Under the pieces are notes generated by a model, which was not told the DNA's origin, made no database searches, and saw only the letters and a list, made by a program, of their open reading frames with translations. Made by a program: the position numbers and the translations under genes. A stretch of 64,000 nt of DNA from Eledone cirrhosa. Its lineage: Eukaryota. Shown here piece after piece: positions 4,642 through 52,544 of the stretch. Every line of letters starts with the position of its first letter. Position 1 is the first letter of the stretch. The stretch is taken from contig OZ024743.1 in NCBI GenBank assembly GCA_964016885.1, positions 185,070,001 through 185,134,000 of the forward strand. The letters run 5' to 3'.

Positions 4642-4908
4642 ATGAAGGCGCATGGCTTAGTGGTTAAAGCATTGGGCTTGAAATCGAAAGGTTGTGAGTT
4701 CAATTCTCGGATCGGGTGATGTGTTGTTTCCTTGAGCAAGACACTTTATTTCACGTTGCTCTAGTTTACTCAGCTGTAGAAATGAGTACCGGCCTGCCCG
4801 CCCAGCCAGTGGGATGGCGTTATCTTATGGCTAAAACAGCACGGACGTGCTGTGACCAGCGGCGCCGATTGGCGCCCGACAGACTGGTTGGTCAAGGTGA
4901 TCAATGTG
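4642..4908 (+). mobile_element. tRNA-derived CORE-type SINE
   Basis: A box TGGCTTAGTGG, B box GAGTTCAATTC, CORE-like CCTTGAGCAAGACACTT...CAGCTGTAGAAATGAGT, and 12-bp TSD ATATTATCCAAT (4630-4641 / 4909-4920). Confidence 0.85.
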
Positions 4909-33772: not shown

Positions 33773-34020
33773 TCCACAATCGGCGTTGTATTCACACACA
33801 CTATGTATAAACTAAAGAAAAAAATAATCAACATTTGTGGTAGTGTTTATTATTTGGAAATAGTTGATGATTCACGCCGCCGCAACTCAGTTTTCCGCCA
33901 TGTCTGATATTATATATATATATAAATGAAGTAATTCCGTCGGAAAAGTCCAGGAAAAAAGAGTGCTCTATGTAGGTAACAGAGCTTAATAGTTATGTAA
34001 TAAACAACATAAGGCAATTA

Positions 34021-34080
34021 TTCCATTTACCAGTGGTTTCTTAAAAGCAAAAGATTTTGCTTTCAATCCTCAGAATGAAA
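34021..34080 (-). ncRNA. Type-I hammerhead ribozyme (family A)
   Basis: tttcatt-CTGAGGA-ttgaaagcaaaa(tc)ttttgcttttaa-GAAA-cc(act)gg-TA-aatggaa; all three stems pair. Confidence 0.85.
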
Positions 34081-34171
34081 AAATCCTGGTCTGTTTATTG
34101 AATTTGGATTTTATGTTGATTTAAAACTGCACTATTCACAAGTGTGTTTTAACCTTCATATCATGTCTCCC

Positions 34172-34242
34172 TATTTTATCTGACGAAAACGCAAATGTTA
34201 TTGCATGATGATATTTGTTTTTGAAATGCGCATAATAAAATA
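34172..34242 (+). ncRNA. Type-I hammerhead ribozyme (family B)
   Basis: tattttat-CTGACGA-stem II-GAAA-tgcgca-TA-ataaaata: 8-bp stem I and palindromic stem III ATGCGCAT. Confidence 0.82.
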
Positions 34243-34412
34243 CATGGAACTCTTTTAACCATCTTTTGATCTTATATATTATTATATATATATATATATT
34301 AAAATAACAGATTAAATTTTAAGCAAAGAATCACTGCTTTCACGCGTAATGGGATCTTCTGAAACAAAAAAATCAATCTGTGAACACATAAGTAAATATT
34401 TCGAAAAATGTT

Positions 34413-35272: not shown

Positions 35273-35325
<53 letters not shown>

Positions 35326-35455
35326 GCAAAAGTTTTATTTTAATTGTTGGGATACAACAAGCAAATATTTTTATAACTGATATAAAGCACTCGACAAATA
35401 TTTGGAGTAGATATACGATATTAATAAATGGAAACTATATTTATAAAACCATATT

Positions 35456-35520
35456 TATTTAATTATATATATTTCAAGGATACCAAGTTACATTATGGTA
35501 TGCCTTCATCAGACAAAATA
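35456..35520 (-). ncRNA. Type-I hammerhead ribozyme (family C)
   Basis: tattttgt-CTGATGA-aggcatacca..tggtatcctt-GAAA-tatata-TA-attaaata. Confidence 0.7.
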
Positions 35521-37061
35521 CAATATTTTTTTTTTAACTTTTTTTATTTTATTTATTTTTTTTTTTTTAACTTTTTTTATTTATTTATTTATTTATTTAT
35601 TATTTTTTTTTTTTACTTTTTAAATATTTTGATATCTGTAGAATCCTTATTTTTTAAGTTATAGTTATATTGATATAATGTTTTATTTTTTATTAGATTT
35701 ATTTTTTATTAGATTCATTTTATTTATTTTTTATTAGATTCATTTTATTTTTATTTTTATTAGATTTGTTTTTATTAGATTTGTCTTTATTCTGATAGCT
35801 TCTCATAATTTTTATTAGATTTATTTTTTTATTCTGATAGCTTCTCATAATTTTCAAAAGTTTGTCCTTTCAATATCTTGATTAAAATATACGTAAGATT
35901 AATTTCTATACTAAATATATTAAACATATTATTTTAACTTAAAATATTCTATAATATTTTGGGATATTTTAGTATTTTGATATTTGTAGAATTCGTTTGT
36001 TTTTTAAGTTATATTAATATAATTATATTTCCAAAATATAATCCTTTTGTATTTTATATACTCAATTGTACTATGTTATATGTTGATGTATACGTATATC
36101 TATATACGGCTAATGTATCTATATGTGTGTGTTGACATACATATACATGTGTTATATGCTTTTTTATGATTATATGTCTGTCTGTATATATGCATGAGTG
36201 ACGCGTGTATTCCAATTGAAGATGCACACACATATCTATTCATGTATAGCTAAGAATTATGGATGGAAATGTACAGGCTTACACATGCAGTTTTTGATTG
36301 CAGATATGCATAACTTAACAGCCATAAATGCATGAAAGTTAATCCTATATATTTATATATATATACTAAAAACTTTTAATTTTTAATTAATAACACAGGG
36401 AATGTATGGCAATAAATAAAAAATCACTTATGCTTTGTATATATATATTATGTGCGGGGGTATATATAATGTGTATTTTCTGAGTGAGTGTGTATACATA
36501 TATATTTATATACCTTTGCCTATGTATATGTAATATGCGATAGATAATCTCTCTCGCAATATATATATTTTATAATGTTTAAATTCCAATTTTTAATATA
36601 TTGATCTCAATTTTAAACTAAATATCTAATCATAATTAAACAATGTGTAATTTCTCATATTATATATCTATATTCCATTCATGAATATTAATATTTCTAA
36701 TTTTATTTATGCTTTTCATCCCAATTGTTAACTCAACTTAATATGACATAACTAAAGGTTTTCGTTCTCTCCCCCCTCTCTCTATCTCTATATATCTCTC
36801 TCTGGATTTTTTTTTCTCTGTCTGATGGTTTGATATCTCCCCGTTATTTTTCCTCTGTTCTCTTTTCTTTCTTCTTTTTCTTTATCTATCTCTCCCTTTT
36901 TTTTTTCTCCACATTTCTCTCTCTCTCTCCATCTTTTTACTTACTCTTAACACTATGACTTACTAAAGTAAACAAATCACTATCCTGATGGCCTCCAAAA
37001 ACAACGGTCAATTTTTTAAAGGGGTACGTCAATGTCTATTTATAAAAAATAAATAATATTG

Positions 37062-37126
37062 TATTTTGTCTGATGAAGGCATACCATAATGTAACTTGGT
37101 ATCCTTGAAATATATATAATGAAATA
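37062..37126 (+). ncRNA. Type-I hammerhead ribozyme (family C)
   Basis: tattttgt-CTGATGA-aggcatacca..tggtatcctt-GAAA-tatata-TA-atgaaata. Confidence 0.78.
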
Positions 37127-37169
37127 AATATGGTTTTATAAATATAGTTTCCATTTATTAATATCGTAT

Positions 37170-37337
<168 letters not shown>

Positions 37338-37366: not shown

Positions 37367-37571
37367 AATGTATAAAAATCAATACAATATAATTACCTCA
37401 TTACCAGAGGTTTCCCGAATGAAGCGAATACGTATTCGCCTCATTCGGGAAACCTCTGGTAATGAGGTAATTATATTGTATTGATTTTTATACATTAAAT
37501 TTTGCTCTGATACATACATAGAGCACTCTTCACTTCTATGACCTTTTCTGTTTCCAACGGAAATTTCAATA

Positions 37572-38209: not shown

Positions 38210-38304
38210 AAATGATGTAATTCCGTCGGAAAAGTCCAGGAAAAAAGAGTGCTCTATGTAGGTAACAGCTTAATAGTTATGTAATAAACAACATAAGGCA
38301 ATTA

Positions 38305-38365
38305 TTTCATTTACAAGTGGTTTCTTAAAAGCAAAAAAATGTTGTTTTCAATCATCAGAACGAAA
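38305..38365 (-). ncRNA. Type-I hammerhead ribozyme (family A, one stem III mismatch)
   Basis: tttcgtt-CTGATGA-stem II-GAAA-ccacttg-TA-aatgaaa. Confidence 0.7.
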
Positions 38366-38473
38366 AGTCCTGGTGTATTTATTGACGTTGGATTTTAAAA
38401 ATAAATATATTTTAAAAAACAGATATAGATTGCATTTTTGTTTTTAAAATCCAACGTCAATACACCAGGATTT

Positions 38474-38534
38474 TTTCGTTCTGATGATTGAAAGCAAAAT
38501 TTTTTTGGTTTTAAGAAACCATTGGTAAATGAAA
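38474..38534 (+). ncRNA. Type-I hammerhead ribozyme (family A)
   Basis: tttcgtt-CTGATGA-ttgaaagcaaaa..ggttttaa-GAAA-cc(att)gg-TA-aatgaaa. Confidence 0.82.
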
Positions 38535-38656
38535 TAATTGCCTTATGTTAATTATTACATAACTATATATATATATATATATAATATCTATATATATATA
38601 TACATATTATATATATATTATATATATATATAATATATATAGATATTATATATATA

Positions 38657-38806: not shown

Positions 38807-39225
38807 TATTATATATATATATAGATATTATATATATATATAAATATTATATATATATATATATATATAAATATTATATATATATTATATATATATATCT
38901 ATCTATCTAAGGCGGGTAGAATTCCCGAGATCCATGGACGAGTTCTCTCCAGCTGTCTCTGTCCCTCATTATCGCTGCCATATTATATATATATATGTGT
39001 GTGTGTGTATCGGGGTTGATAAAATAAAGTACCAGTAATTGCTGGCCTTGTGCCAAAAGTAGAAACAATTATATATATATATATATAAATATTATGCAAA
39101 AATTTTATTTAAAATTGTTGGGTTACAACGAGTAAATATTTTATAACTGATATAAAAGCACTCAACAGATTTTGGAGTATTTTACGATATTAAACAAATG
39201 GAAACTACATTTATAAAACCATATT

Positions 39226-39292
39226 TATTTCATTATATATATTTTCAGGGATATCATATTAAAAATATGGTATGCCCTCTTCAGACAAAATA
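39226..39292 (-). ncRNA. Type-I hammerhead ribozyme (family C)
   Basis: Inverted copy of 39459-39525. Confidence 0.72.
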
Positions 39293-39458
39293 CAATATAT
39301 AAACAGTTTTATAAATAAATTTGACATACCTTGAAAAATTTACAACTTCCATTTAAAAAGTTGTTATAACAACCATAACAACCATAACAACTTTTTAAAT
39401 GGAAGTTGTAAATTTTTAAAGGTATGTCAAATTTATTTATAAAACTGTTTATATATTG

Positions 39459-39525
39459 TATTTTGTCTGAAGAGGGCATACCATATTTTTAATATGATAT
39501 CCCTGAAAATATATATAATGAAATA
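39459..39525 (+). ncRNA. Type-I hammerhead ribozyme (family C)
   Basis: tattttgt-CTGAAGA-gggcataccatatt(ttt)aatatgatatccct-GAAA-atatata-TA-atgaaata. Confidence 0.72.
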
Positions 39526-40075
39526 AATATGGTTTTATAAATGTAGTTTCCATTTGTTTAATATCGTATATAAATATTATATATATATATAAATATTCAT
39601 CATTTTACGTCCGCTTTTTCCCTGCTTGCAAGGGTGGGACGGGAACTGATTCTGGCTTGATTTCTACAGCTGGATGCCCTTCCTAACACCAACCTCATTT
39701 ACAGTGAGTGCTGGGTGCTTTTTTGCCGTGGCACCTCCACGACCACTTTGCAGTGGAATGATATGGACCTCAGTCCCTATCATCTCATTTCTACAGCTGA
39801 GTAAACTGGAGCAATGTGAAATAAAGTGTCTTGCTCAAGGAAACAACACAGCACCTGGTCTGAGAATTGAACTCACGACCTTTCACAACAATATATATAT
39901 ATAAATATTATATATATATATAAATATTATATATATATATAAATATTATATATATATATAAATATTATATATATATATAAATATTATATATATATATATA
40001 TATAATTATATATATATATATATATATAAATAAATATTATATATATATAAATATTATATATATATATAAATATTC

Positions 40076-42190
40076 ATCATCATCATCATGATCATCATCG
40101 TTTAACGTCCATCTTCCACGCTAGCATGGGTTTGGACGGGAATTTTACCACTTGAGGCAAGATTAATTGTCTTGCTCATATAGGACTGTCTGGCGGGTTT
40201 TCTACGGCTGGATACCCTTCCTAACACCAACCACGTTTACAGTGTGGACTGGGAGGTTTTTACCGTGTTACCTACACGGCCACATTACAGCGTGGACTGT
40301 GTGTTATTTTGTCGTGACACCTACACGCCCTCATTTGTTTCGGACTGGATGCTGTGGTACCAACATAACTTTACATTGGAAGGGGTGGTGTGGATGGGGT
40401 GGGGGTAGCGGGCCGGGGTGTATTTTTGTTAGAGGTGCCTACTGACTGTAGGTTTCGCTTTGTACTTAGGCAAGGCGGGTCTTCTGTATTACTGTGTATA
40501 CGCCAAGGATCTCGGTCCAGTGACATTGTCTTGGAGACGTGTAAGTGTGTGAGGTCGGAATTTAGCAAGTCGTCCCAGGTTTTTCTGGGTCTGCCTACTC
40601 CGTAGCTACCATCTATTTTTATCGCCCTGCACTTTTTTATACAGCTGTCGTCTTTCATGCGTATCACGTGACCATACCAACGTAGTCTCCTCTCGAGTAA
40701 ACAGCATCTGATCACTCTTATTCCTAATTTCTCACTTAGTTCATTTATGCTTTGCCGTTCACGTATATTACTATTACACATCCAGCGGAGCATGCAAGCT
40801 TTGTTCCTCTCCAGTCTGCGTATATCCTCTGCACACAATGCCCAGGTCTCACTGCCATGCAACATCGCTGTTCGTATGCAGGCATCATACAGCCTGCCTT
40901 TCATTTTTAGTGAGAACCCTTTAGCGGCCAATAGTGGTATAAGCTCTCTGAACTTTTTCGATCCCGTTCTGACTCTAGCTACTGTACTTTCGGAGCACCC
41001 TCCCCCACTGCTGATTTTGTCACCCAGGTAACAGAAACTGTCCACTATTTCTATAGAACCATCTGTGCAATAGAATGAGCTAGTATTTTGCGGGCACTTG
41101 CTGCTACTTATTGCACCAGAACACCGGCCACATATAAAATCTATGTTCTTAGTTAGCTTACCTGTGATCCCACTACATCTTTTATGCACCCATACTTTGC
41201 ATTTGGGACATAAAATGGAGTTTCTTCCTACTCCTTTCCTACACACTGAGCATGGCCATTTCCCAGATGGGACCAGTGCCCTATTTTCCTTCCTACAAAC
41301 TAGAACTTTAGTCTTAGATAGGTTAATTTTAAGGCCTTTTGATTCTAGGCCATGCTTCCATATTTGGAATTTCTTCCCTAGTTCGGCCATTGATTCAGCT
41401 ATGAGCGTTAGATCATCTGCGTATAGGAGTTCCCATGGGCAGCCGGTCTTGAACTTTTCTATTATAGCCTGAAGGGCAATAATAAATAGGAGGGAGCTAA
41501 GGACGGAGCCCTGATAATCACCAACCTTTACGCTAAACTCTTCACAATATTCGTTGTTAATTCTAACCTTGCTGACTGTTTCTTTATACATGGCTTGTAT
41601 AGCTCTCACAAGCCATTCGTCAACACCTAGTTTTCTAAGAGCCCACCAGATAATGGGGCGTGGGACTCTGTCAAAGGCTTTCTCCAAGTCAACAAAGGCT
41701 AAGTATAGGGGTTTACTTTTAGCTAGGTACTTCTCCTGTAGTTGTCGTACAATGAAGAGAGCGTCTGTGGTACTTTTACCTGACACAAACCCGAACTGCA
41801 TTTCATCTAGGTCAATTCGCTCTCTGATTAGTTGCGCTATTACTTTTTCTGTGAGATTCATGACCTGGTTGATTAATTTAATGTCTCTATAGTTACCCCT
41901 ATCTAGGGCATCTCCTTTACCCTTGTAGCAGTTAATGATGATGCTGCTACGCCAGTCCTTTGGTATGACCCCATTCTGTATGACTTGGTTTACTATCCGG
42001 GTGACCATAGTGTGTCCCACCATTCCAGATGCTTTCAGCATTTCAGCAACTATTTCCGAAGGCCCAGCCGCCTTACCCATCTTCATATCTTTGATTGCCT
42101 TACTTATTATACTACCTTCGACTAACACTGCTGGTCCCTCTATTGGCTCGATGTGGGGGAGACTGTCTTTCTCCCATTTATTCTCCTTAT
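40076..42190 (-). mobile_element. 5'-truncated RTE LINE with an open RT and PHD-finger frame and a (GAT)n tail
   Basis: QFGF, FVDLEKAFDRVPR, YADD, C4HC3 finger, YLG and GRPRKTW motifs; (TA)n flanks. Confidence 0.92.
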
Positions 42191-42242
42191 TATATATATA
42201 TATTCTCCTTATTATATATATATATAAATAATATACATATAT

Positions 42243-42545
42243 ATTGTTATACTTTGGGAGGGTCATGTTGCCAATAAGAAACACACGCACCAGTTGCTTT
42301 CACTTCAATTTATTATATATTTATAAATTTACAAATTTATAAATTTCTGGTTTGTTGGTTGGTTCCACAACCAGATAGTTGTTTATATATAGTCATAGTT
42401 CTTTCGTCACACACTCTGTGACCTCTTCAGTGACTGGGGATTCCTTTTTTTTTTCTTTCTGTGCCTCTCCTTTGTTCTGTCCTACGCCATTTTGTTTCTG
42501 TGTGTGTGTTGTGTGCTCAGTCTGCGCATGCGCCACATCCGGGTG
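42243..42545 (-). mobile_element. PLE pLTR fragment (family P)
   Basis: Reverse complement is similar to 16340-16593. Confidence 0.8.
42391..42435 (-). ncRNA. Minimal type-I hammerhead ribozyme (family P)
   Basis: agtca-CTGAAGA-g-gtcaca(gagtg)tgtgac-GAAA-gaac-TA-tgact. Confidence 0.75.
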
Positions 42546-42547
42546 TC

Positions 42548-42610
<63 letters not shown>

Positions 42611-42705
42611 TATATATATTATATATATATATATATTATATATATTTATATATTATATATATATATATATATATTATATATATTATATATATATATATAT
42701 ATATA

Positions 42706-43521
42706 AACGGGATGGAAGAAGTTTAGGGAACTACTACCACTGCTAGCTGCAAAAGGCTTCTCTCTCAGAATGAAAGGCAGACTGTATGATGCGTGTATCC
42801 GAACAGCGATGTTGCATGGTAGTGAGACCTGGGCGCTGAAGGTGGAAGACTTACGTAGATTAGAGAGAAACGAAGCCTGCATGCTCCGATGGATGTGTAA
42901 CAGTAATATACGTGAACGACAAAGCATAAATGAATTGAGAGAGAGACTGAGCATAAGAGGAATCAAATGCTGCGTGCAGGAGAGGCGGTTACGCTGGTAT
43001 GGACATGTGATGCGTATGAAGGATGACAGCTGCATAAAAAGGTGCAGAGCACTAGAAGTTGATGGAAACCGCGGAGTGGGGAGACCCAAGATGACTTGGG
43101 ATGAGGTGATAAAAGCCGACCTTACCCAACTACACCTCTCAAAGTCAATGACACACGACCGTGACTTCTGGCGTCACGCAGTAATACAGGGTACCCGACC
43201 TCCCATGGGTACATGCTGAAGCATATAAACAATATGCCCCCCCCCCCCCACCGCAAGGTGGTCGTGGAGGTGCCACGGCAAAAAAGCACCCAGCCCACAC
43301 TGTAAAGTGGACGTGTAGGCGCCACGAAAAAGCACCCAGCACTCACTGTAAATGAGGTTGGTGTTAGGAAGGGCATCCAGCTGTAGAAATCAAGCCAGAT
43401 CAGTTCCTGTATGAGCAAGGCATGGTCAGCCGACCAGACACTGCCCACAACAGGACAACCCGTCTAACCCATGCTAGCGTGGAAGAACGGACGTAAAACG
43501 GTGATGATGATGATGATGATG
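42706..43521 (+). mobile_element. RTE LINE 3' fragment
   Basis: KGRLYDACIRTAMLHGSETW...GRPKMTW and a (GAT)n tail. Confidence 0.9.
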
Positions 43522-43597: not shown

Positions 43598-44482
43598 ATC
43601 ATCATCATCATCATCAACGTTTAACGTCCGTGTTCCACGCTTGCATGGGTTTGGATGGGGGTTTTCCCACTTGAGGCAAGAGTGATTGTCTCGCTCGCAT
43701 AGGACTGTCTGGCAGGTTTTCTACAGTTGGATGCCCTTCCTAACACCAACCACATTTACAGTGTGGGTCTGGGAGGTTTTTACCGTGTTGCCTACACGGC
43801 CACATTACAGCGTGGACTGTGTGTTTTTTTGTCGTGACACCTACACGATCTCATTTGTTTCGGCCTGGATGGTGTGGCTCTAACATAACTTTACATAGAA
43901 GGGGGCGGTGTGGATGGGGTGGGGGGGTGTATTTTGTTAGAGATGCCTACTGACTGTAGTAGGTTTTACTTTGTATTTAGGTAAGGCGGGTCTTCTCTAT
44001 TACTGAGTACCGCCAAAGGTCTCGGTCCAGTGACATTGTCTTGGTGAGGTGTAAATGTGTGAGGTCGGAGTTTAAAAGCTCGTCCCAGGTTTTTCTGGGT
44101 CTGCCTATTCCGTGGCTACAGTCTATCTTTATTGCCCTGCACTTTGTTATACAGCTATCGTCCTTCATGCGCATCACGTGACCATACCAACGTAGCCTTC
44201 TCTCGAGTAAACAACATCTGAACCCTCTTATTTTTAATTTTTTCCTTAGTTCGTTTATGCTTTGTCGTTCACGTATATTACTATTACACATCCAGCGGAG
44301 CATGCAAGCTTCGTTTCTCTCTAGTCTGCATATATCCTCTGCACACAATGCCCAGGTCTCACTGCCATGCAACATTGCTGTTCGTATGCAGGCATCGTAC
44401 AACCTGCCTTTCATTTTTAGGGAGAACCCTTTAGCGGCTAATAGTGGTATAAGCTCTCTGAACTTTTTCCACCCAGTTCTGA

Positions 44483-44490
<8 letters not shown>
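43598..44490 (-). mobile_element. RTE LINE 3' fragment
   Basis: Same family motifs and a (GAT)n tail. Confidence 0.9.
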
Positions 44491-44521
<31 letters not shown>

Positions 44522-44527
<6 letters not shown>

Positions 44528-45321
44528 GAATTGGCATAAATTCTATAAAATGCACACAATGCAGATCCTGGGTACACAAGAGATGTAGCGGAATAGCAGG
44601 CAAACTAACAGGTAGGGAGAAATATGTATGCAGTAGATGTACAGGGAAATTAGACAGTAGAAGTCGCATTGATAGACACATTTTTCAAATGCAGGCGGGT
44701 GCTATAGAAGTGGTGGATAGCTTCCGGTACCTAGGAGATCAGATTAGCATGGGAGGGCGGTGTTCCGAGGCCATAGTATCTAGAATAAGGACGGGTTGGA
44801 AGAAGTTTAGGGAGCTGCTTCCTCTGCTGATGAAGAAGGGTTTCTCCCTGCGTACGAAAGGCCGGTTATATGATGCCTGGGTGAGGAGCGCGATGCTGCA
44901 TGGTAGTGAGACATGGGCAGCTACTGCAGAGGATATGCGACGGCTGGAGAGAAATGAGGCAAGCATGCTCCGTTGGATGTGCAGTGTCAATGTGCGTGAA
45001 CGACCCAGCATGAATGTGTTGAGAGAGAAACTGTGTCTGAGAGGGGTAGAATGTAGTGTACGGTAGAGGAGACTGAGGTGGCATGATGCGCATGGAGGAT
45101 GACCGATGGGTAAAGAAGTGCCAGGAAATGTCAGTTGAAGGAAGACGTGGTAGAGGTAGACCACGAAATACATGGGCGGAGGTGGTGAGAACAGACCTGA
45201 GATCGCTGAAGCTCACGGTGGAGATGACGAAGGACCGTGATAAGTGGAGAGATGCTATGCTGAATAAGAATCGTCCCACCCTTGCAAGCAGGGAAGAGCG
45301 GACATAAAATGATGATGATGA

Positions 45322-45324
<3 letters not shown>
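44522..45324 (+). mobile_element. RTE LINE 3' fragment (related subfamily, short 3' UTR)
   Basis: CTQCRSWVHKRC..CSRC, YLG and LHGSETW motifs; (GAT)n tail. Confidence 0.9.
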
Positions 45325-45356
<32 letters not shown>

Positions 45357-45413
45357 TTATATATATAAATATATATATATATAAATATTATATATATATA
45401 TAAATATTATATA

Positions 45414-45461
<48 letters not shown>

Positions 45462-45465
<4 letters not shown>

Positions 45466-45722
45466 ATACTTTGGGAGGGTCATGTTGCCAATAAGAAACA
45501 CACGCACCAGTTGCTTTCACTTCAATTTATTATCATAAATTTATAAATTTAGCCGGAAATTTATAAATTCCTAAATTTATAAATTTATTATAATAAATTG
45601 AAGTAAAAGCAACTGGTGCGTGTGTTTCTTATTGGCAACATGACCCCGCCAAAGTATAACAATATCGGTTTCAACACACGTTTTCAGATAAAGAATCTTG
45701 CTAAACAAATTCAGAAACGAAA
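45462..45722 (+). mobile_element. Fold-back PLE remnant (family P), truncated downstream of the hammerhead
   Basis: Inverted arms ~45462-45533 and ~45590-45663, plus a tail matching 16594-16652. Confidence 0.8.
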
Positions 45723-45741
45723 TATATATATATATATATAA

Positions 45742-46645
45742 ATATCTTTCAACTGCGCAGAGGGCTCTATAGAAATAGTGGACAGCTTCCGTTACCTGGG
45801 TGACAAAATCAGCAGTGGGGGAGGGTGCTCTGAAAGTACAGTAGCTAGAGTCAGAACTGGATGGAAAAAGTTCAGAGAGCTTATACCACTATTAGCCGCT
45901 AAAGGGTTCTCCCTAAAAATGAAAGGCAGGTTGTATGTTGCCTGCATACGAACAGCAATGTTGCATGGCAGTGAGACCTGGGCATTGTGTGCAGAGGATA
46001 TACGCAGACTAGAGAGGAACGAAGCTTGCATGCTCTGCTGGATGTGTAATAGTAATATACGTGAACGGCAAAGCATAAACGAACTAAGGAAAAAATTAGA
46101 AATAAGAGGGATCAGATGTTGTTTACTCGAGAGAAGGCTACGTTGGTATGGTCACGTGATGCGCATGAAAGATGATAGTTGTATAACAAAGTGCAGGGCA
46201 ATAAAGATAGACGGTAGCCACGGAGTAGGCAGACCCAGAAAAACCTGGGACGAGCTGATAAATTCCGACCTCACACACTTACACCTCTCCAAGACAATGT
46301 CACTGGACCGAGACCTATGGCGGTACTCAGTGATAGAGAAGACCTGCCTTACCTAAATACAAAGTAAATCCAGGCCGAAACATATGAGATCCTGTAAGTG
46401 TCACGACAAAAAAACACACAGTCCACGCTGTAATGTGTCCGTGTAGGCAACACGGTAAAAACCTCCCAGCCCCACACTGTAAATGTGGTTGGTGTTAGGA
46501 AGGGCATCCAGCTGTAGAAAACCCGCCAGACAGTCCTATGCGAGCAAGACAATCACTCTTGCCTCAAGTGGGAAAACCCCCGTCCAAACCCATGCAAGCG
46601 TGGAACACGGACGTTAAACATTGATGATGATGATGATGATGATGA
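45742..46645 (+). mobile_element. RTE LINE 3' fragment
   Basis: Same family motifs, highly similar to the inverted copy at 43598-44490, (GAT)n tail. Confidence 0.9.
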
Positions 46646-51722: not shown

Positions 51723-52083
51723 GAATATATATATATATATATATATATAAAAAGATCGATCGACTTTCGTCAAATCGGACCGAGGAAACATGTTTCCGTC
51801 GGTCTTTCCAGTTGCTAGTACTATCTATCGGTCGCAACTCCAGGTAGAAGGAGCAACGTGAAATAAAGTGTCTTGCTCAAGGACATAACGCATCGCTCGG
51901 TTATATATTATATATATATAATATATAACCAAAGATATATAACCAAAGATTAATATGGTCCATTGATTACTCAATGAATATAGTTTTACAATAGATTAAA
52001 AGCACTCTACAAGAAAGTTTTCTGGAGTTATTAATATTATTCAAAATATTAATAAATGAAGACGTTCACATAATCAAAATATG

Positions 52084-52145
52084 TTTTATTATATATATTT
52101 CGGAGGTACTGTGCTGTTTTTTCAGTATGTCCTCATCAGATAAAA
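52084..52145 (-). ncRNA. Type-I hammerhead ribozyme (family D)
   Basis: ttttat-CTGATGA-gga.tactg..cagta.tcc-GAAA-tatata-TA-ataaaa. Confidence 0.82.
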
Positions 52146-52281
52146 TATATGGATTGATGTATGACATGCCTCAACTGTCTTGATGGTTCAATTTCAGTAT
52201 TGGCAGTGGAATTGAACCATCTGCCAATACTGGAATTGAACCATCAAGGCAGTTGAGGTATGTCATACATCAATTCATATA

Positions 52282-52343
52282 TTTTATCTGATGAAGACGT
52301 ACTGAAAAAACAGCACACTACCTCCGAAATATATATAATAAAA
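52282..52343 (+). ncRNA. Type-I hammerhead ribozyme (family D, weakened stem II)
   Basis: ttttat-CTGATGA-agacgtactg..ctacctcc-GAAA-tatata-TA-ataaaa. Confidence 0.68.
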
Positions 52344-52544
52344 CATATATTTTGATTATGTGAACGTCTTCATTTATTAATATTTTGAATAATACATATA
52401 ATATATATAGGTCAGCACCTCTTTTAATTTGGACATAAATATGTGAAGACACACGAATTTTCTGTGACCCGCCAGACTGGTTAATTCACGTTAGAATAGT
52501 GAAATTTACTTTTAAATATTCGCACCTTCATATTATTATAGTTG

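What the first reader, a model, noticed from the sequence alone, without database searches (positions are those of the whole stretch)
33922..34277. Hetero-palindromic ~360-bp element with two different hammerheads on opposite strands
Family A (minus, with tail) is fused head-to-head near 34113 to family B (plus, no tail). The B part ends at GATCTTATAT, exactly where the inverted arm of the pure B fold-back ends (37611). It therefore occupies the inverted-arm slot of the A insertion. Inference: the inverted arm can be templated in trans by a second RNA of another family, implying two-template integration and cross-family use of one RT/EN. The diverged arms at 38274-38565 fit the same idea. The product has a viroid-like layout (small, ORF-less, a ribozyme in each polarity), but nothing here shows RNA-level replication.
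Basis: partly seen in the sequence, partly recalled or inferred. Interest (0 to 1): 0.75.

Follow-up and report, generated by a model that had tools for sequence, protein, structure and literature searches.

The report
Mixed-family Penelope head-to-head insertion
This 360-bp piece joins the ends of two different young jumping-gene families head to head, each end with a hammerhead-ribozyme motif; it occurs once in the genome and is likely a rare accident in which the two sides of one DNA break were filled from two different RNAs, not a viroid-like element.

Summary
The sequence is as described: a tailed end of Penelope-like family A (minus) meets a tail-less end of family B (plus) at 34113/34114, each with a type I hammerhead motif and each identical to many young copies. 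The joint occurs once, against 127 A/A and 377 B/B, so it does not propagate. Ten more direct mixed joints turned up among five families, and 2 of 148 same-family palindromes have arms from different subfamilies. Arms therefore come almost always, but not always, from one source. Both families have their own coding parents, so a shared enzyme is not needed, and the arms at 38274-38565 belong to one subfamily. The viroid reading has no support. Best reading (0.55): each side of one break was primed on a different RNA, as described for LINE-1. A later deletion or a second insertion at the same TA tract remain open. Reads did not confirm the joint (inconclusive). The scan noted a similar rare mixed pair elsewhere in this genome (e1-10310022).

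The parts
33908..33921 (.). (TA)n target tract, left side
   Evidence: sequence; left flank is at unique depth in runs X4/X5
33922..33988 (-). Family A tail (between the long and short 3' ends)
   Evidence: present in tailed copies, absent from inverted arms, which stop at query base 68
33989..34113 (-). Family A pseudo-LTR, ending at the site where A/A palindromes fold (TTTTAAAA)
   Evidence: 100% identical to young copies; fold sites
34021..34080 (-). Type I hammerhead motif of A; predicted cut between 34028 and 34027
   Evidence: motif and stem scan; cleavage not tested
34112..34113 (.). TA microhomology at the A/B joint
   Evidence: comparison with the natural continuations of A and B
34114..34283 (+). 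Family B pseudo-LTR without tail, starting at the site where B/B palindromes fold (CATATG)
   Evidence: 100% identical to at least 39 copies; fold sites; ends
34172..34242 (+). Type I hammerhead motif of B with palindromic stem III; predicted cut after 34234
   Evidence: motif and stem scan; cleavage not tested
34284..34299 (.). (TA)n target tract, right side
   Evidence: sequence
34296..34412 (-). Older solo tail-less arm of a third family (D); a neighbour, not part of the A/B piece
   Evidence: 85-89% identical to the longer D matches; annotated

Best explanation
This is a single-copy, head-to-head joint between the 3' ends of two unrelated young Penelope-like retroelement families in a (TA)n tract, likely made in one insertion event in which the two sides of a DNA break were each primed on a different RNA. 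Shown: both halves are family ends, both identical to the youngest copies, both stop at their family's usual fold site, joined through TA with no spacer. Inferred: these families normally write their two arms by two separate priming events on RNA (long start gives the tail, short start gives the tail-less arm), nearly always from one source; here the second RNA came from family B, most simply carried by B's own protein, and the two cDNA ends were joined by microhomology end-joining. The piece is a dead-end by-product.
For: Both halves at 0% divergence. Both break at the family fold sites with no remnant. Separate priming of arms: in 5 of 28 B loci the tail-less arm holds sequence missing from the tailed arm, and in two (L032, L058) the tailed arm stops at the short end. 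Different templates within one palindrome: L079 and L084 differ at 5 linked subfamily markers each and keep the one-tail rule. A piece of B is caught at the apex of an E/E palindrome (L280). Ages of the halves of mixed joints tend to agree (rho 0.56, n=9, p=0.12), unlike tail-to-tail neighbours (rho -0.02, n=24). The same outcome is described for LINE-1 (PMC11702581 section 7; PMC13174262 passages).
Against: Tail pattern of the 11 mixed joints fits random pairing, as a later deletion would also give. 6 of 11 keep a fold-back remnant of their own family. Neighbours are common: 47 mixed tail-to-tail pairs in 1.48 Mb and 12 head-to-head pairs with a TA spacer against 8 direct joints among 22 pattern hits. 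The age trend is not significant, and exact-match patterns favour young halves. Mixed-subfamily arms could be gene conversion; one-sided apex deletions could mimic non-overlapping arms. No empty allele was seen and no read was seen to span the joint.
Confidence: 0.55

Rival explanations
1. Later deletion: an A/A and a B/B palindrome sat side by side in the TA tract, and a break repaired apex to apex removed the two inner arms.
For: Tail pattern 5:3:3 matches random orientation; fold-back remnants in 6 of 11 mixed joints, on both sides in L264 and L268; neighbours are common; 6 of 50 B/B places lack a full arm.
Against: Needs two independent very young insertions, then two breaks within a few bases of both apexes; it cannot account for mixed-subfamily B/B pairs at 2 of 60 when same-family neighbours are few (10); ages of neighbours are uncorrelated.
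Confidence: 0.2
2. Two insertions in sequence: a solo arm of one family came first and the other family inserted into the TA bases beside its 5' end, leaving no spacer.
For: 12 head-to-head mixed pairs with a TA spacer, one only about 4 nt long (L275); solo arms, often tail-less, are common; this site already holds an older D arm.
Against: Most spacers are 10-50 nt, so zero spacer should be uncommon, yet direct joints are about as frequent (8 versus 12); both halves here are at 0% divergence. TA runs also occur at the apex of 6 of 195 same-family palindromes, so some spacer pairs may be single events too.
Confidence: 0.15
3. Assembly or chimeric-read artefact at a repeat-rich site.
For: No listed contig piece spans the joint in X4, X5, X6 and no RAD read does in X8.
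Against: Only 24 of 471 pieces were listed and RAD data cover few sites; the left junction is confirmed; ten other mixed joints with end-joining features exist.
Confidence: 0.08
4. A viroid-like or propagating composite that uses a ribozyme in each polarity.
For: Small, no ORF, one hammerhead motif per strand.
Against: One copy; ends are the families' insertion ends, not cut sites, with no terminal repeat; the ribozymes face outward; the whole does not fold better than shuffles (z -1.27).
Confidence: 0.02

Closest known systems
Inverted insertions of endonuclease-bearing Penelope-like elements, Hydra clade most likely (Craig et al. 2021, PMC8557442; passages and section 11 read)
   Same: Pseudo-LTR with hammerhead, tail at one end, inverted 5'-truncated copy, (TA)n target, parent with RT and C-terminal GIY-YIG-type domain.
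   Different: The inverted copy is from another family; tails here are about 67 and 80 nt rather than 30-40 nt.
Self-priming model for Penelope palindromes (Arkhipova et al. 2013, PMC3846280; passages read)
   Same: Short palindromes at the inverted junction; short fold-back remnants are seen here too.
   Different: Self-priming alone cannot give mixed-family or mixed-subfamily arms, or arms holding sequence that the partner lacks. That paper found no cross-mobilization between its PLE types.
Two RT start sites in Poseidon of Anolis (Frangieh et al. 2024, PMC11167929; parts 1-2 of 4 read)
   Same: Tail equals the stretch between two start sites; both target strands are cut and extended; dimer predicted.
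   Different: Inverted or mixed products were not addressed in the parts read.
LINE-1 twin priming on two RNAs (PMC11702581 section 7; PMC13174262 passages)
   Same: Two sequences in opposite orientation, read as opposite DNA ends extended from different templates and joined with microhomology.
   Different: There the partner is usually a cellular RNA copied by L1 protein; here both are ends of Penelope-like families with their own coding parents.
Non-LTR retrozymes (bioRxiv 10.64898/2026.07.22.740005; part 1 of 5 read)
   Same: Type I hammerheads, link to Penelope-like elements.
   Different: No tandem units; one hammerhead per strand.

Membership tests
EN+ Penelope-like element end | Hammerhead motif in the pseudo-LTR | tested here: met
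   both halves
EN+ Penelope-like element end | Tail at one end only, inverted truncated copy | tested here: met
   41 of 44 B/B palindromes have one tail; A copies; at this locus the inverted copy is of another family
EN+ Penelope-like element end | Parent encodes RT and C-terminal GIY-YIG endonuclease | tested here: inconclusive
   A: broken ORF with YRDD and a cysteine-linked YVG motif upstream of an A-like hammerhead copy and a 1.3-kb spacer in L197, ORF end also in L021. B: only the endonuclease end, in L194. Motifs read by eye; Pfam gave no hit at cut-off.
Hydra clade | (TA)n target and canonical hammerhead | tested here: met
Hydra clade | CxCX5C linker, CxxC motif, no CCHH | tested here: inconclusive
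   A parent reads YSC-X5-C with a later CSLC; B parent copy is degraded, with CNLC; read by eye
Hydra clade | RWK and DKT motifs; placement in an RT tree | not tested
Non-LTR retrozyme | Tandem units each with a hammerhead | tested here: not met
   one unit of each family, head to head
Viroid-like RNA | Ribozyme motif in each polarity | tested here: met
   (layout in DNA only)
Viroid-like RNA | Unit bounded by cut sites, strongly self-paired fold | tested here: not met
   ends are insertion ends; z -1.27
Viroid-like RNA | Circular RNA that replicates | not tested
   no RNA run was laid; single DNA copy

The most novel reading that the evidence does not exclude
One Penelope RT/endonuclease complex, after priming on its own family's RNA at one DNA end, takes the RNA of an unrelated family for the other end. 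Mixed joints, mixed-subfamily arms and apex-captured fragments would then be a natural read-out of template choice in Penelope insertion, and a route for families to swap ends.
Probability: 0.15. Interest if true: 0.7.

Novelty: new variant of a known kind. Interest (0 to 1): 0.4.

Why it matters
How Penelope-like elements make their inverted ends is unsettled; the published reading I found is self-priming on one template. Mixed-family joints, mixed-subfamily arms and non-overlapping arms argue that each arm is primed separately on RNA, with about 99% fidelity to one source. They give a direct test: supply two marked RNAs in the existing in vitro system, or genotype these joints in a population. 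The piece itself is a single dead-end copy.

Tried and rejected
Propagating composite: rejected, one copy in four pattern searches covering gaps of 10-40, 50-110 and 111-171 nt. Arms at 38274-38565 as a second mixed case: rejected. Tail-less end as proof of the inverted slot: rejected. Reads: searches gave no listed piece across the joint and no empty allele; neither shows absence. DNA searches with natural two-family loci did not enrich for mixed joints; one (L249) came up by the way. Dropped from the mixed set: L141 and L096 (another repeat lies between the arms), L269 (chance anchor match), L280 (apex capture, counted apart); L011 was left out of the age test for lack of close neighbours, and L281 was found after it. 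L163 (2 marker differences, one to a private base) was not counted as mixed. Rfam and Pfam gave nothing useful. Paper searches found no report of mixed-family Penelope palindromes; the library lacks most subscription papers and no supplements were read, so Craig et al.'s family sequences were not compared.

Full report
Observation. The window lies in a 3.0-Gb genome (G000:C4:185,070,001-185,134,000). A motif-and-stem scan finds type I hammerheads at 34021-34080 (minus, family A) and 34172-34242 (plus, family B). The A part (33922-34113) is 100% identical to at least 7 other loci among the 40 scored of 1542 candidates, and the matches stop at 34113. The B part (34114-34277) is 100% identical to 39 other loci among the 40 scored of 453. 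A and B are unrelated in sequence, and the joint has a 2-nt TA microhomology. A keeps its tail; B stops at its short end and runs into (TA)n. Beyond that lies an older, tail-less solo arm of a third family, D. In public runs a contig spans the left flank into A's tail without differences; no listed piece spans the A/B joint, but only 24 of 471 pieces were shown.

What A and B are. Sister copies show the layout described for Penelope-like elements: a tailed end joined head to head to a tail-less inverted copy inside (TA)n (PMC8557442 passages). Longer copies run into bodies. For A, L197 holds a broken ORF with RT and endonuclease-like motifs, then an A-like hammerhead copy, about 1.3 kb of microsatellite-rich sequence and A; the ORF end recurs in L021. 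For B, L194 holds an endonuclease-like frame upstream. The two frames are 37% identical over 87 residues. Pfam gave no hit at cut-off, so the assignment rests on motifs read by eye and on the features listed for the Hydra clade; earlier notes of this scan gave the Hydra lead.

Copy number. The junction 25-mer occurs once. With matched anchors and a 10-40 nt gap the genome has 1 A/B, 127 A/A and 377 B/B joints; free pairing would give about 438 A/B. Wider, degenerate A/B patterns add none. Broader anchors give 3277 B/B against 5 direct joints of B with another family in the pattern searches, about 0.15%, a lower bound because only four partner families and limited gaps were searched.

How the arms are normally made. 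A/A folds at TTTTAAAA and B/B at CATATG, often with short templated insertions. Of the first 50 listed B/B places, 6 lacked a full arm; 41 of the other 44 have exactly one tail. Arms nearly always share subfamily markers: 2 of 148 palindromes are mixed (A 0 of 49, B 2 of 60, C 0 of 39) where random pairing gives about 71. The two, L079 and L084, differ at five linked markers each, each arm matches another locus, and both keep the one-tail rule. In 5 of 28 B loci the tail-less arm holds sequence that the tailed arm lacks, and in two the tailed arm ends at the short end. A pure fold-back copy cannot give this, so I infer two priming events on RNA, in line with two start sites and two-strand extension in vitro (PMC11167929) and against self-priming alone (PMC3846280 passages). 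Gene conversion and one-sided apex deletion are the caveats.

Other mixed joints. Thirteen two-family pattern searches returned 22 hits: 8 direct joints (this one, L261, L264, L265, L267, L268, L271, L281), 12 pairs with a TA spacer, one chance match and one B fragment caught at the apex of an E/E palindrome. Three more direct joints came from annotating 1.48 Mb of fetched loci (L011, L100, L249). Tail status, read by eye, is one tail in 5, two in 3, none in 3. This fits 50:25:25 (p=0.96) and differs from 41 of 44 (p=0.001). So the one-tail pattern at this locus is no evidence of a filled slot. Six of the 11 keep a short fold-back of their own family. Ages of the two halves tend to agree (rho 0.56, n=9, p=0.12), as in same-family palindromes (0.51, n=154) and unlike tail-to-tail neighbours (-0.02, n=24); exact-match patterns bias this towards young pairs.

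The arms at 38273-38566 share six variants, four seen nowhere else in the loci then held, and differ mostly by private changes: an older same-subfamily palindrome. A shared RT/EN is not required, since each family has its own coding parent. The viroid reading fails on copy number, on ends that are insertion ends rather than cut sites, and on folding (z -1.27); RNA was not examined.

Mechanism. I favour one event with two RNAs (0.55): both halves are at 0% divergence, both stop at their family's fold site with no remnant or spacer, and two-template products exist within family B. Random tail pattern is expected if two separate complexes each choose a start, but also if a deletion joined two neighbouring palindromes (0.2) or a second insertion landed beside a solo arm (0.15); neighbours are common (47 mixed tail-to-tail pairs). 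An assembly error keeps 0.08. LINE-1 gives the same kind of product, read the same way (PMC11702581 section 7; PMC13174262 passages).

Novelty. Seven paper searches found no report of mixed-family Penelope palindromes; the library is incomplete and supplements were not read. This scan noted a rare mixed pair and the long-end/short-end rule at other sites of this genome. The finding is a new variant of a known insertion type, useful as a clue to an open mechanism, not a new element. Interest 0.4.

Noticed in passing
L280 (G000:C17:3162660-3162771): An internal piece of family B is captured at the apex of a palindrome of family E.
   Followed up: partly
L072 1228-1526: A tail-less C arm is fused in tandem, with no TA between, to the short end of an A/A palindrome: a template jump or a nested insertion.
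   Followed up: no
window 34296-34412; L023, L090: Family D has a hammerhead-like fold with CAGAAGA in place of CUGANGA (read by eye); cleavage unknown.
   Followed up: no
L196, L197, L198: Family A's 3' region has two hammerhead copies (90% alike) about 1.3 kb apart, separated by microsatellite-rich sequence.
   Followed up: partly
window 37383-37570: Near-perfect fold-back of a further family, truncated inside the hammerhead, with a tail resembling A's.
   Followed up: no
window 35320-35535, 37047-37174, 39183-39568, 52076-52351: More hammerhead-bearing arms and palindromes of family C and a related family.
   Followed up: partly
L035 1700-1890: A D/D palindrome with a TA run at its apex, so a TA spacer need not mean two events.
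   Followed up: partly
window 43962-46371 and 40500-43204: Inverted repeats with arms of about 500 nt (76-96% complementary), not examined.
   Followed up: no
window 4653-4710: Weak tRNA match at the Rfam threshold (29.9 bits).
   Followed up: no
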